This document shows positions 24,501 to 27,500 of a stretch of 64,000 nt of DNA, in pieces (position 1 is the first letter of the stretch; each line of letters starts with the position of its first letter). This DNA is from Escherichia coli. GTDB taxonomy: Bacteria > Pseudomonadota > Gammaproteobacteria > Enterobacterales > Enterobacteriaceae. Location: assembly GCF_024502345.1 (NCBI RefSeq), contig NZ_JALDNN010000001.1; one strand, 5' to 3'. Made by a program: the position numbers.

Positions 24501-27500
24501 AACTCTATATTAAGCTATTTAAGTAAACTAATATGAATATTCTTATAATTATTCCTAAGTTATGTAACGGTGGGATTGAAAAAATTGCATCAAACTTTTC
24601 TCAATACTTACCAGAAAGATATAATCAATTTGTATATTCAATCATGTCACAAGACTCTTCTTATGATTTTGCGGTAAAGCCCATTATATTAAATAAAAGT
24701 TTAGGTAAAACCTTTATTGGAAAATTGATTACATTTTTCTACAGGCTTCATTTGGCACGTAAAATTATTAGAGAAAATAACATAGATATATGCATTAGTT
24801 TTGGGGAGAGATGTAATATTATAAATATTCTATCTATGGGGAAAACAAAAAAAATCATTACTATACATAGTCAGCTATCTATTGAAAATAAAACAAAAGG
24901 ATTATATGGGAAAGTTACAACACTATTTTCAAAATTGCTTTATAAAAATGCGGATGCTACTGTAGCCGTATCAGAAATAGTGAAGAAGGATGCGTGCGGT
25001 TTATTAAATTTAGATGCGAATAATGTAGAGCTAATTTATAATGGACACGATATTGATTATATCAAAGATAAGTCTACTGATTATAAAGAATTTGATACAC
25101 CTGTGATCGACTTCGTGTCTGTAGGGCGAATTACATATGCTAAAGGGCATTATCATCTATTGAGAAGTCTTGCCATAGTAAAGGAGACGTATCCTAATGT
25201 AATACTATATATTGTTGGCACGTATGAAAAAGATAATTTAAAAAGCATAATTGATCATTTAATTGAGAAATACGATTTATATGATAATGTGATTTTTACC
25301 GGCTTTAGTGACAATCCATATCCTTACATAAAATCAGCAAAGGCTCTTATACTTAGTTCAATTTTTGAAGGTTTTCCAGGCGTTGTTATCGAGAGTATTG
25401 CGCTTGGAACTCCTGTCATAGCGACAGATTGTGGCGGTGCTTCAGAAGTTTTAAAAAGTCCAGATGCCAAAATAAAGAATAATACGGGAGATGTGGAAAT
25501 TACTAAATTAGGAGTACTGTTACCAAAATTCGATGGGATTTATGATATTAATTTGGATTTTTCGCCCACAGAAAAAAAGATGGCGCAAGTTATGAATGAT
25601 ATTATATCAGGGAAGCTGAAATTTAATGAAGACTTTTTAATTACAAAAGCAAACGAATATGATATAGATTCTATGATGAAAAAATATACGGACTTAATAG
25701 AGAAAATAAAATAATGAAAGAAGCTACTACCTCATATAAATCAATTCATACTATATTAGATTATTTTGGTTGGTCTCATGAAGATTATTGGCATATCAAC
25801 TATAAAGTAAATTATGATTTTTCAAAATTTAATTATTATTGGGATTTGACAAAAAAGTATAATTGGTTTAGTGGACCTTTTGATCAAAATAATATTCCTT
25901 TATATCTTGGCACTGATTCAAAACTGCATTACTCGCCAATTTTTTTAGGGCATTATGCTCTTGGAGCATATCAAGAATATCTATTATCAAATGATAAAAA
26001 AGCATATGACGATTTTATAAGAATAGCGGATTGGTTTGTTGAAAATACAACGACATATAAAAAATGTTCTGGAATATGGATAAATACATACCCAATGTCA
26101 ACTTTTAACTTAAAAGGTAAATGGCAATCGTGTTTAGCCCAGGCAAAAGGTATATCTGTCCTATGTAGAGCTTATTATCTTACGCAAAATTTAAAATATT
26201 TGAAGGTAGCTCTTGACGCATTTGAATCTTTCAAAATATATAAAGAAGAAGGTGGAGTTAAGGTAAGGCATAAAAACGTATTCTTTTGGGAGGAATATCC
26301 AACTATAACCAATTCTATCGTATTGAATGGACATATTTTTGCAGTTTGGGCATTGTACGATTTATCTTTTGTATTAAAAGATAAGAACGAATTTAAGCAA
26401 CAATGGACGGATATTTACAGTTATTATAAAAAATCACTGATTATATTAAAAGAGAATTATAAGTTATGGGATACGCGCTATTGGACTAGATATGATATAT
26501 GGGATAAACATTTTAATGTTTCAAGTTTGTTTTATCATAATCTCCATATTAAACAATTCTATATATTGGCTGTTTTGGGAGATGATGATGATTTCAAGAA
26601 AATTGCTAATAAATGGGCTGGTAAATTAAAAAATCCGCTTTTCAGAATGTATGCGCTTATAAAGAAAGTAGTTTTTAGGTTATGATTATGAATGTTATTG
26701 ATAAAATTATTATGGGTTTGAAAAGTATATATTTAAGCTTTCTTTATACAATATATAATTTATTTCTTAATGAAAATAGATTCGAAGAGACAAATGAAGT
26801 ACATGTTGTTGTAAGTTTGACGTGTTTTCCTGGACGTATAAAAAAAGTATATCTTACTTTGGAGTCAATTATGGCTCAACAATATAATAACTTTAAAGTG
26901 GTATTGTACTTGTCTCATGAAGAGTTTCCAAAGGGTTTAGAGGATTTACCTCGTAGTTTAATACGATTACATAAAAGAGGTGTCGATATTAATTTTACGT
27001 GTGAAAATATTCGATCTTATAAGAAGTTACATTATGCGCTGAGTGATTTCCCGGAACTACCTGTAATAACAGCTGATGATGATGTCTTATATCCCTCGCG
27101 ATGGGTAAATGATTTTATGGAGTCACATAAGCTTTTTCATGATGATATATTATTTGCGAGGGGGCATCAGATAACATTTGACCGAAATGGAAATGTTAAA
27201 AAATATATCTCTTTCGGAAAACCAGCTGGATATTCAGCATCAAGTTTATATATTCCTACAGGAGTAAGTGGAATTCTATATCCGCCAGGATGTTTTTTTC
27301 AAGATGTGCAGAATAAAGATATTTTTATGAAGTTGGCACCTAACGCAGATGATATATGGTATAAAGTAATGACTTTGTTAAACGGTCGAAAATCCAGATT
27401 GATCTATAAAAAGCCAATTCATTATCCACCTATCCTTGGCACACAGAAGATCTCCTTGCGTAAACAAAACTTATCGAAACAACATTTAAATAATGATACA

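What the first reader, a model, noticed from the sequence alone, without database searches (positions are those of the whole stretch)
25714..26685. Unassigned 323 aa soluble protein inside the O-antigen cluster
This ORF is translationally coupled to the transferases on both sides but has no glycosyltransferase, acyltransferase or membrane signature. It is rich in aromatic residues (W, Y) as carbohydrate-binding or carbohydrate-modifying enzymes often are. It may modify the repeat unit, for example as an epimerase acting on a uronic acid given ugd nearby, but that is speculative and rests on a faint remembered resemblance to glucuronyl C5-epimerase-like domains.
Basis: inference. Interest (0 to 1): 0.6.

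Follow-up and report, generated by a model that had tools for sequence, protein, structure and literature searches.

The report
Iduronic-acid epimerase of E. coli O112ab

Summary
The 323-aa ORF at 25714..26685 (+) is real. Its start is conserved, and homologues 45-60% identical occur in Vibrio, Aeromonas, Providencia and Photobacterium. It matches Pfam C5-epim_C (PF06662, E 1.8e-35) and human and zebrafish GlcE (E about 1e-22). A confident AF2 model (pLDDT 93) superposes on the GlcE alpha-barrel (Foldseek E 4e-11). All five GlcE catalytic residues are present and invariant: E194, Y195, N205, Y260, Y274.

The window is the E. coli O112ab O-antigen cluster (100% identical to an O112ab:H8 genome). 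L-IdoA occurs only in O112ab among E. coli O antigens. RefSeq already calls the gene "D-glucuronyl C5-epimerase family protein". Raedts 2011 lists it as a candidate and Liu 2020 names it Gae. It is therefore already known as a prediction; I found no biochemical test.

It differs from animal GlcE: no beta-hairpin or beta-sandwich domains, no signal peptide or anchor, and a cationic amphipathic C-terminal helix. I infer it acts in the cytoplasm, most likely on the undecaprenyl-PP-linked oligosaccharide rather than on UDP-GlcA.

A side finding: the downstream "hypothetical" 293-aa gene is a KfiA-like GT-A glycosyltransferase. It travels with the epimerase in every related locus examined.

The parts
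25714..26685 (+). Gene for the 323-aa D-glucuronyl C5-epimerase homologue ('Gae' in Liu et al. 2020; RefSeq WP_032261840.1)
   Evidence: ORF; Pfam PF06662 E 1.8e-35; GlcE PDB hits; RefSeq annotation; AF2 pLDDT 93.4 and Foldseek top hits to GlcE
26098..26619 (+). Region encoding residues 129-302, the match to the C5-epim_C domain (the alpha-helical barrel that carries the active site)
   Evidence: model positions 17-187 of 188; homology to GlcE extends over residues 101-307
26293..26298 (+). Codons for E194-Y195, equivalent to human GlcE E499-Y500 (catalytic)
   Evidence: Alignment, counted with the +90 offset of chain 6hzz; catalytic residue list from PMC13308652; invariant in 19 homologues; residues checked
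26326..26328 (+). Codon for N205, equivalent to human GlcE N510
26491..26493 (+). Codon for Y260, equivalent to human GlcE Y560
26533..26535 (+). Codon for Y274, equivalent to human GlcE Y578. The 6i01 chain carries F at the aligned position, its only visible difference from 6hzz
26635..26682 (+). Codons for residues 308-323: a cationic amphipathic C-terminal helix conserved in this bacterial clade and lying beyond the homology to GlcE. Possible membrane-surface anchor (inference)
   Evidence: Helix H308-322 in the model; hydrophobic moment 0.58 and net charge +7 over the last 24-26 residues, with +3 to +8 in the 18 homologues; K318, F321 and R322 nearly invariant
26682..27563 (+). Downstream gene 'X' (293 aa; 291 aa from ATG 26688 in RefSeq, annotated 'hypothetical protein'): GT-A-fold glycosyltransferase whose nearest solved relatives are KfiA and the KfiA-like domain of Pasteurella heparosan synthase 2
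   Evidence: No Pfam or NCBIfam hit; profile of 55 homologues hits KfiA at 1.2e-8 and PmHS2 residues 294-525 at 6.5e-8, against SpsA at 0.013; invariant D132-D133-D134; AF2 pLDDT 95.4 and Foldseek top hit KfiA at 2.7e-8; always directly downstream of the epimerase
24533..25714 (+). Upstream GT4 (retaining) glycosyltransferase, PglJ-like; part of the conserved GT4-epimerase-X block
   Evidence: NCBIfam PglJ 1.4e-34, below the curated cut-off; synteny
23546..24526 (+). GT2 (inverting) glycosyltransferase, 326 aa; one of two candidates for adding beta-D-GlcA
27569..28309 (+). GT2 (inverting) glycosyltransferase, 246 aa, TuaG-like; the other candidate for adding beta-D-GlcA
   Evidence: NCBIfam TuaG 1.1e-79, 268 bits, below the cut-off of 400
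20957..23546 (+). wzx (20957..22348) and wzy (22362..23546; RefSeq start 22368), O112ab-type flippase and polymerase
28319..29332 (+). galE/gne UDP-hexose 4-epimerase, last gene of the low-GC cluster
   Evidence: NCBIfam GalE 2.5e-128, above cut-off
31046..32239 (+). ugd, UDP-glucose 6-dehydrogenase, the source of UDP-GlcA (RefSeq uses a start 27 nt further in, giving 388 aa)
20886..20924 (+). JUMPstart element with the ops motif GGCGGTAG at 20913..20920, 33 nt upstream of wzx; marks one RfaH-type operon running from wzx to galE
   Evidence: Rfam RF01707, 53.2 bits against a gathering score of 35; motif; gene gaps of -4 to +13 nt through the cluster

Best explanation
The gene encodes a minimal, single-domain, cytoplasmic member of the heparan-sulfate-type D-glucuronyl C5-epimerase family. 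It makes the L-iduronic acid residue of the E. coli O112ab O antigen. Proposed pathway: Ugd supplies UDP-GlcA. An inverting GT2 enzyme places beta-D-GlcA on the growing undecaprenyl-diphosphate-linked repeat unit at the inner face of the membrane. The epimerase then abstracts and re-adds the C5 proton of that glycan-bound GlcA, using the Glu/Tyr/Asn/Tyr/Tyr set it shares with GlcE, to give alpha-L-IdoA; the anomeric carbon is untouched, so beta-D becomes alpha-L. Later irreversible steps pull the reversible reaction to completion: glycosylation by the adjacent KfiA-like transferase, then Wzx flipping and Wzy polymerisation. Shown here: family membership, fold, conserved catalytic residues, absence of export signals, and the gene's setting in the O112ab cluster. 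From the literature: IdoA is in the O112ab product. Inferred: that the substrate is the lipid-linked oligosaccharide rather than UDP-GlcA, the order of steps relative to gene X, and membrane association through the C-terminal helix. My confidence that the protein is the GlcA-to-IdoA epimerase is about 0.9. The confidence value given for this explanation is for the whole statement, including the lipid-linked substrate.
For: PF06662 at E 1.8e-35. GlcE structures hit at 2.5e-23 and 2.1e-22 over residues 101-307. AF2 pLDDT 93.4. Foldseek best hits are human and zebrafish GlcE: E 4e-11, 220 columns, rmsd 2.1-2.9 A, 30-32% identity. E194, Y195, N205, Y260 and Y274 align with E499, Y500, N510, Y560 and Y578 and are invariant in 19 homologues. 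The window is 100% identical to an O112ab:H8 genome and RefSeq gives the same annotation. L-IdoA occurs only in O112ab among E. coli O antigens (PMC7685785). The same 323-aa protein is listed as a candidate epimerase for E. coli O112ab, with a 323-aa counterpart in S. boydii 15, which has the identical IdoA-containing pentasaccharide (PMC3068255). For the glycan-level substrate: every PF06662 enzyme tested so far acts on chain-bound GlcA, not on UDP-GlcA (PMC12624080 and PMC13308652). There is no signal peptide or membrane segment, so the periplasmic polymer is out of reach. The clade has a conserved cationic amphipathic C-terminal helix. The gene sits inside a glycosyltransferase block (GT2-GT4-epimerase-X-GT2) kept intact in Vibrio and Aeromonas, not next to ugd. 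The adjacent gene X resembles KfiA, whose known acceptor is GlcA at the chain end (PMC3418500). An archaeal precedent, Agl32, epimerises GlcA on a lipid-linked tetrasaccharide in the cytoplasm.
Against: I found no biochemical or genetic test of this protein. The published proposal is different: UDP-GlcA to UDP-L-IdoA (PMC7685785). The protein lacks the beta-sandwich domain that forms half of the polymer-binding cleft in GlcE, so the substrate may be small and could be a nucleotide sugar. Agl32 belongs to another fold family, so it is a functional analogy only. The membrane role of the C-terminal helix is inferred from sequence alone. I could not retrieve the O112ab linkages, so I could not check whether IdoA carries an alpha-HexNAc at O4.
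Confidence: 0.55

Rival explanations
1. It is a nucleotide-sugar epimerase. It converts UDP-alpha-D-GlcA to UDP-beta-L-IdoA in the cytoplasm, and an inverting glycosyltransferase then installs alpha-L-IdoA directly. This is the pathway drawn in the E. coli O-antigen review.
For: Proposed in PMC7685785 as 'the only likely pathway', explicitly without experimental data. The protein is soluble and cytoplasmic. It lacks the beta-sandwich domain that helps GlcE hold a long chain. Sugars in Wzx/Wzy O units normally arrive as NDP-sugars (PMC7685785). The stereochemical outcome is the same as for glycan-level epimerisation.
Against: No PF06662 member has been shown to use UDP-GlcA; the eukaryotic enzymes and the Bermanella enzyme act on chain-bound GlcA. 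The gene lies among the glycosyltransferases rather than next to ugd. This route would need a transferase specific for UDP-L-IdoA, an activity with no characterised example that I know of (my own knowledge).
Confidence: 0.3
2. It epimerises GlcA in the finished or growing O polysaccharide in the periplasm, after Wzy polymerisation, as alginate and animal glycosaminoglycan epimerases act on polymers.
For: Family precedent for polymer-level action. Raedts 2011 states that many prokaryotic candidates have predicted signal peptides.
Against: This protein and its 18 close homologues begin with the polar sequence MKEATxSYKS and have no hydrophobic stretch. No export signal is visible. A regular repeat unit with stoichiometric IdoA is hard to obtain from a reversible post-polymerisation step that has no pulling reaction (inference).
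Confidence: 0.03
3. It is an alpha-barrel protein with another activity (uronate lyase or hydrolase, 2-epimerase, or a non-catalytic sugar-binding protein), and IdoA arises by another route.
For: Weaker fold matches to cellobiose 2-epimerases, GH76, GH105 and polysaccharide lyases at E 3e-4 to 1e-2. No experimental proof of activity exists.
Against: The GlcE matches are about seven orders of magnitude better than those to the other barrels. All five GlcE catalytic residues are invariant. No other candidate epimerase for C5 of GlcA is in the cluster. The gene co-occurs with ugd in all related loci, and the O antigen contains IdoA.
Confidence: 0.05

Closest known systems
Animal heparan sulfate/heparin D-glucuronyl C5-epimerase (GlcE/GLCE; PDB 6HZZ, 6I01, 4PW2, 4PXQ)
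   Same: Same Pfam family (PF06662). 30-32% identity over about 210-220 residues. The same alpha-helical barrel. The same five catalytic residues (E, Y, N, Y, Y). The same net reaction is expected: GlcA to IdoA by C5 proton exchange.
   Different: The E. coli protein has 323 aa against 617. It lacks the N-terminal membrane anchor, the beta-hairpin and the beta-sandwich domains. It is cytoplasmic rather than in the Golgi lumen. It has an extra cationic amphipathic C-terminal helix. Its substrate cannot be N-sulfated heparosan; it is an unsulfated HexNAc/GlcA-containing O-unit or UDP-GlcA.
Bermanella marisrubri RED65 D-glucuronyl C5-epimerase (Raedts et al. 2013), described in 2026 as the only identified bacterial enzyme of this kind
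   Same: A bacterial PF06662 protein listed in the same table of prokaryotic candidates as the O112ab protein.
   Different: It has 448 aa against 323. It was assayed on O-desulfated heparin, a foreign substrate, and its natural product is unknown. For the O112ab protein the natural IdoA-containing product is known but no assay exists. I did not align the two sequences directly.
Halobacterium salinarum Agl32 (VNG1058H)
   Same: A cytoplasmic enzyme that converts GlcA to IdoA on a short lipid-linked glycan before flipping. This is the closest functional analogy to the mechanism proposed here.
   Different: It belongs to a different fold family (AGE/cellobiose 2-epimerase-like), has none of the GlcE catalytic residues, and is not found by BLAST with GlcE.
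KfiA (E. coli K5) and the KfiA-like domain of Pasteurella heparosan synthase PmHS2. This comparison is for the neighbouring gene X, not for the epimerase.
   Same: GT-A fold and a DDD motif in the same place. They are the best sequence-profile and fold matches among solved structures.
   Different: Only about 14-16% identity and TM-scores of 0.47-0.65. Some family members give weak GT2 or GT64 Pfam hits instead. The donor, acceptor and anomeric outcome of X are untested.

Membership tests
D-glucuronyl C5-epimerase family (Pfam PF06662, GlcE type) | Significant match to the C5-epim_C profile over most of its length | tested here: met
   E 1.8e-35, 122.6 bits, model positions 17-187 of 188, residues 129-302
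D-glucuronyl C5-epimerase family (Pfam PF06662, GlcE type) | Alpha-helical barrel fold superposable on the GlcE catalytic domain | tested here: met
   AF2 pLDDT 93.4, pTM 0.93. The top eight Foldseek hits are all GlcE: E 4e-11 to 2e-10, rmsd 2.1-2.9 A over about 220 columns
D-glucuronyl C5-epimerase family (Pfam PF06662, GlcE type) | Catalytic residues E499, Y500, N510, Y560, Y578 (human numbering) | tested here: met
   E194, Y195, N205, Y260 and Y274 align with them (residue list from PMC13308652) and are invariant in 19 homologues
D-glucuronyl C5-epimerase family (Pfam PF06662, GlcE type) | Enzymatic conversion of GlcA to IdoA | not testable with these tools
   Indirect support only: L-IdoA is a component of the O112ab O antigen (PMC7685785, PMC3068255). 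No assay or knockout was found in the held literature
Animal GlcE architecture (three-domain, Golgi-lumenal, polymer-acting) | N-terminal beta-hairpin and central beta-sandwich domains that form the dimer and half of the substrate cleft | tested here: not met
   The protein has only 323 aa. Homology and structural alignment begin at residue 101 or so and match only the C-terminal domain of GlcE, chain residues 315-521.
Animal GlcE architecture (three-domain, Golgi-lumenal, polymer-acting) | Signal anchor or export into a non-cytoplasmic compartment | tested here: not met
   Polar N-terminus; highest 19-residue hydropathy 1.5. The same N-terminus is found in all homologues. No dedicated signal-peptide predictor was available
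Animal GlcE architecture (three-domain, Golgi-lumenal, polymer-acting) | Acts on GlcA within a chain, flanked by hexosamine, and not on UDP-GlcA | not testable with these tools
   Inferred as more likely from family precedent and gene context; unproven
KfiA-like (heparosan-type) alpha-N-acetylhexosaminyltransferases, tested for neighbouring gene X | GT-A fold with a DXD motif and best similarity to KfiA/PmHS2 | tested here: met
   Profile hits KfiA at 1.2e-8 and PmHS2 at 6.5e-8. Foldseek top hit KfiA at 2.7e-8. D132-D133-D134 invariant
KfiA-like (heparosan-type) alpha-N-acetylhexosaminyltransferases, tested for neighbouring gene X | Retaining transfer of alpha-HexNAc to O4 of a terminal glucuronic or iduronic acid | not testable with these tools
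   No assay exists. The O112ab linkages were not retrievable. Family members also give weak GT2 and GT64 Pfam hits

The most novel reading that the evidence does not exclude
The O112ab protein is a stripped-down, one-domain GlcE. It works in the cytoplasm on an undecaprenyl-PP-linked oligosaccharide only a few sugars long. Together with the adjacent KfiA-like transferase it forms a portable 'HexNAc-alpha-1,4-IdoA' (heparin-like) cassette that has spread among Enterobacterales, Vibrio and Aeromonas surface-polysaccharide loci. That would overturn the UDP-L-IdoA pathway drawn in the O-antigen literature. It would also provide a small, soluble, E. coli-native C5-epimerase that needs no N-sulfation, which is of interest for enzymatic synthesis of IdoA-containing glycans.
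Probability: 0.45. Interest if true: 0.45.

Novelty: already known. Interest (0 to 1): 0.25.

Why it matters
The gene explains the one rare sugar, L-iduronic acid, that sets O112ab and Shigella boydii 15 apart from all other E. coli O antigens. That link was already made in the literature by sequence similarity.

Two things remain open: experimental proof, and the level at which the epimerase acts (nucleotide sugar or lipid-linked glycan). Only one bacterial enzyme of this family has been assayed, and that was on a foreign substrate. This protein has a known natural product and a genetically tractable host, so it is a good system to settle the question.

The pairing with a KfiA-like transferase suggests a bacterial route to a heparin-like disaccharide motif. 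That pairing is a modest new observation and remains an inference.

Tried and rejected
NCBIfam gave no hit for the epimerase or for gene X, even at E up to 1. Pfam on gene X alone gave nothing, even at E up to 10, and only the 55-sequence profile and the fold search placed it.

I tried to retrieve the O112ab / S. boydii 15 repeat-unit linkages, to check whether IdoA is 4-substituted by an alpha-HexNAc. None of these routes produced them:
- The primary paper and the Shigella review are not held.
- The E. coli review has no supplements held.
- Text searches for IdopA/GalpNAc and 'boydii type 15' found nothing useful.

The GlcE structure papers and the Bermanella paper are not held. The catalytic residues therefore come second-hand from PMC13308652, and the substrate-contacting residues of GlcE could not be compared.

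Model coordinates are not exposed to scripts. I could not inspect the active-site cleft or check whether the C-terminal helix packs on the barrel.

The promoter and terminator scan inside the cluster was no better than shuffled sequence (66 against 58.6 expected; 2 against 2.6). It adds nothing beyond the JUMPstart element.

Rejected readings:
- A glycosyltransferase or acyltransferase: no such profile hit.
- A fragment of a neighbouring gene: full-length homologues exist.
- A periplasmic polymer epimerase: no export signal.

P0016 could not be located on a contig. The large representative-protein search and the third fold search were not used, because they would not change the verdict.
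Full report

The ORF at 25714..26685 on the + strand is exactly as described: ATG start, 323 codons. Its ATG shares one base with the TAA stop of the upstream gene (TAATG). Its TGA stop overlaps an ATG of the downstream ORF (ATGA); RefSeq prefers the ATG six bases further on. Gene gaps through the cluster run from -4 to +13 nt. A JUMPstart element with the ops motif lies 33 nt upstream of wzx. The ORF is therefore an internal gene of one long operon.

- The protein has no membrane segment: its highest 19-residue hydropathy is 1.5, against 2.7-3.2 for Wzx and Wzy. 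Its N-terminus is polar and its pI is 9.15.
- Its aromatic content is 20.7% (W 4.3%, Y 9.6%, F 6.8%). The soluble neighbours in the same 26-34% GC context have 9-13%, so the richness is not just AT bias.
- Eighteen homologues were found, most of them full-length at 319-328 aa. They are 45-60% identical and start with the same MKEAT. This rules out a chance ORF or a fragment of a neighbouring gene.

**2. What it is**

Pfam gives one strong hit: C5-epim_C (PF06662), E 1.8e-35, covering model positions 17-187 of 188. Against all PDB sequences, the only significant hits are zebrafish and human heparan-sulfate D-glucuronyl C5-epimerase, at 2.5e-23 and 2.1e-22 over residues 101-307.

An AlphaFold2 model built on the 19-sequence alignment is confident: pLDDT 93.4, pTM 0.93. 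Its eight best Foldseek matches in the PDB are all GlcE chains, at E 4e-11 to 2e-10, rmsd 2.1-2.9 A over about 220 columns, 30-32% identity. The next matches are cellobiose 2-epimerases and other alpha-barrel carbohydrate enzymes, at E 3e-4 and weaker.

The human catalytic residues are E499, Y500, N510, Y560 and Y578 (PMC13308652 citing Debarnot 2019). Counting along the alignment, with chain 6hzz offset by +90, they fall on E194, Y195, N205, Y260 and Y274 (residues checked). As an internal check, the 6i01 chain differs from 6hzz by F for Y exactly opposite Y274. All five positions are invariant in the 19-sequence alignment.

**3. Where it sits**

The stretch 20957..29332 is 100% identical to E. 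coli O112ab:H8 and to several other genomes whose wzx and wzy are annotated as O112ab type.

The gene order is galF, JUMPstart, wzx, wzy, GT2, GT4, this gene, a 'hypothetical protein', GT2, galE, gnd, ugd, wzzB. RefSeq already names this gene 'D-glucuronyl C5-epimerase family protein'.

- The review of E. coli O antigens states that L-IdoA occurs only in O112ab. It lists 'Gae, C5-epimerase' and proposes a UDP-L-IdoA pathway 'not based on experimental data' (PMC7685785).
- Raedts et al. 2011 list a 323-aa protein of E. coli O112ab, and a 323-aa counterpart in Shigella boydii 15, among prokaryotic candidate C5-epimerases. They note that both organisms have the same IdoA-containing pentasaccharide (PMC3068255).

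The assignment is therefore already public. I found no knockout or enzyme assay. [quoted passage not shown]

**4. How it probably works**

Membership of the catalytic family is met on profile, fold and active-site residues. The animal architecture is not met. The protein has nothing corresponding to the beta-hairpin and beta-sandwich domains, and no anchor or signal sequence. [quoted passage not shown]

Because it stays in the cytoplasm, only two substrates are plausible:
- UDP-GlcA, which is the published proposal.
- GlcA already transferred to the undecaprenyl-PP-linked repeat unit.

I favour the second, at roughly 2:1, on these grounds:
- Tested members of this family act on chain-bound GlcA, not on the nucleotide sugar.
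- The gene is embedded in the glycosyltransferase block, not next to ugd.
- That block (wzy-GT2-GT4-epimerase-X-GT2) is conserved at 30-59% protein identity in a Vibrio parahaemolyticus locus and an Aeromonas dhakensis locus. The GT4-epimerase-X core, with the TuaG-like GT2, is also conserved in a third contig from a public sequencing run.
- The clade carries a conserved, strongly cationic amphipathic C-terminal helix beyond the GlcE homology. Such a helix would suit docking on the membrane surface.
- Agl32 of Halobacterium gives a cytoplasmic, lipid-linked precedent for the same reaction, although it comes from an unrelated fold.

Stereochemistry does not discriminate between the two routes: beta-D-GlcA epimerised at C5 is alpha-L-IdoA either way. 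All of this is inference, and the decisive experiments are listed separately.

**5. The neighbour**

The downstream ORF (26682..27563, 'hypothetical protein' in RefSeq) has no Pfam or NCBIfam hit of its own.

- A profile of 55 homologues hits KfiA, the alpha-GlcNAc transferase of K5 heparosan synthesis (PMC3418500), at 1.2e-8. It hits residues 294-525 of Pasteurella heparosan synthase 2 at 6.5e-8. The generic GT2 enzyme SpsA scores only 0.013.
- A DDD motif (D132-D134) is invariant.
- The AF2 model (pLDDT 95.4) has a GT-A fold, with KfiA as the best Foldseek hit at 2.7e-8.
- It lies directly downstream of the epimerase in all four loci inspected.

With WecA as initiator, and the Und-PP-GlcNAc 4-epimerase gene upstream of galF, four transferases fit a pentasaccharide unit. 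A heparosan-type transferase next to a heparan-type epimerase suggests a HexNAc-alpha-1,4-uronic acid motif. I could not retrieve the published linkages to check this. Identity to KfiA is only about 15%.

**6. Verdict**

- The gene is a member of a known family, in a known cluster, with a known product. It is already annotated and discussed as such, so the finding is ordinary.
- Residual interest lies in three points: the lack of any experimental proof, the unresolved substrate level, and the unannotated KfiA-like partner.
- Interest score: 0.25.

Noticed in passing
window 26682..27563 (+): The gene downstream of the epimerase is 'hypothetical protein' in RefSeq and has no Pfam or NCBIfam hit. 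A 55-sequence profile and an AF2 model identify it as a GT-A glycosyltransferase closest to KfiA and the KfiA-like domain of PmHS2, with an invariant DDD motif. It accompanies the epimerase in every related locus examined.
   Followed up: yes
window 20957..29332 versus flanks: The O-antigen genes have 26-34% GC, against about 50% for galF and gnd. The GT4-epimerase-X-GT2 block has 45-60% identical counterparts in Vibrio, Aeromonas, Providencia and Photobacterium. This points to horizontal acquisition of the cassette.
   Followed up: partly
window 20886..20924 (+): JUMPstart RNA element (Rfam RF01707, 53.2 bits) containing the ops motif GGCGGTAG at 20913..20920, just upstream of wzx. A second GGCGGTAG at 7841..7848 lies in the colanic acid region and was not examined.
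   Followed up: partly
window 18522..19517 (+): The gene between wcaM and galF is annotated in RefSeq as the Und-PP-GlcNAc 4-epimerase (Gnu type). This implies the repeat unit may start with GalNAc rather than GlcNAc.
   Followed up: no
window 22362/22368, 26682/26688, 31046/31073: The mechanical ORF starts differ from the RefSeq starts for wzy (GTG 22362 against 22368), gene X (ATG 26682 against 26688) and ugd (397 against 388 aa). These are minor start-codon ambiguities.
   Followed up: no
window 58189..58261 (-), 60598..60670 (-), 62419..62491 (+): Three tRNA genes with identical Rfam scores (72.6 bits) within 4.3 kb, one on the opposite strand. They are probably copies of one tRNA. Their anticodons and the genes between them were not examined.
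   Followed up: no
window 14176..14246 and 14272..14342 (-); 9656..9705 (+); 40540..40663 (-); 42960..43034 (+): Other Rfam matches above the gathering score: two naRNA4 (REP-derived) copies and an algC RNA motif in the colanic acid region, the his operon leader, and sRNA STnc240. All are expected chromosomal features of this region.
   Followed up: no
L003 2046..3536 and 9881..10963: The Vibrio parahaemolyticus version of the cassette has an extra acyltransferase-3 gene inserted after X, a pyruvyl transferase, and a 496-aa protein without Pfam hits upstream. These suggest decorated variants of the same IdoA-containing unit.
   Followed up: no
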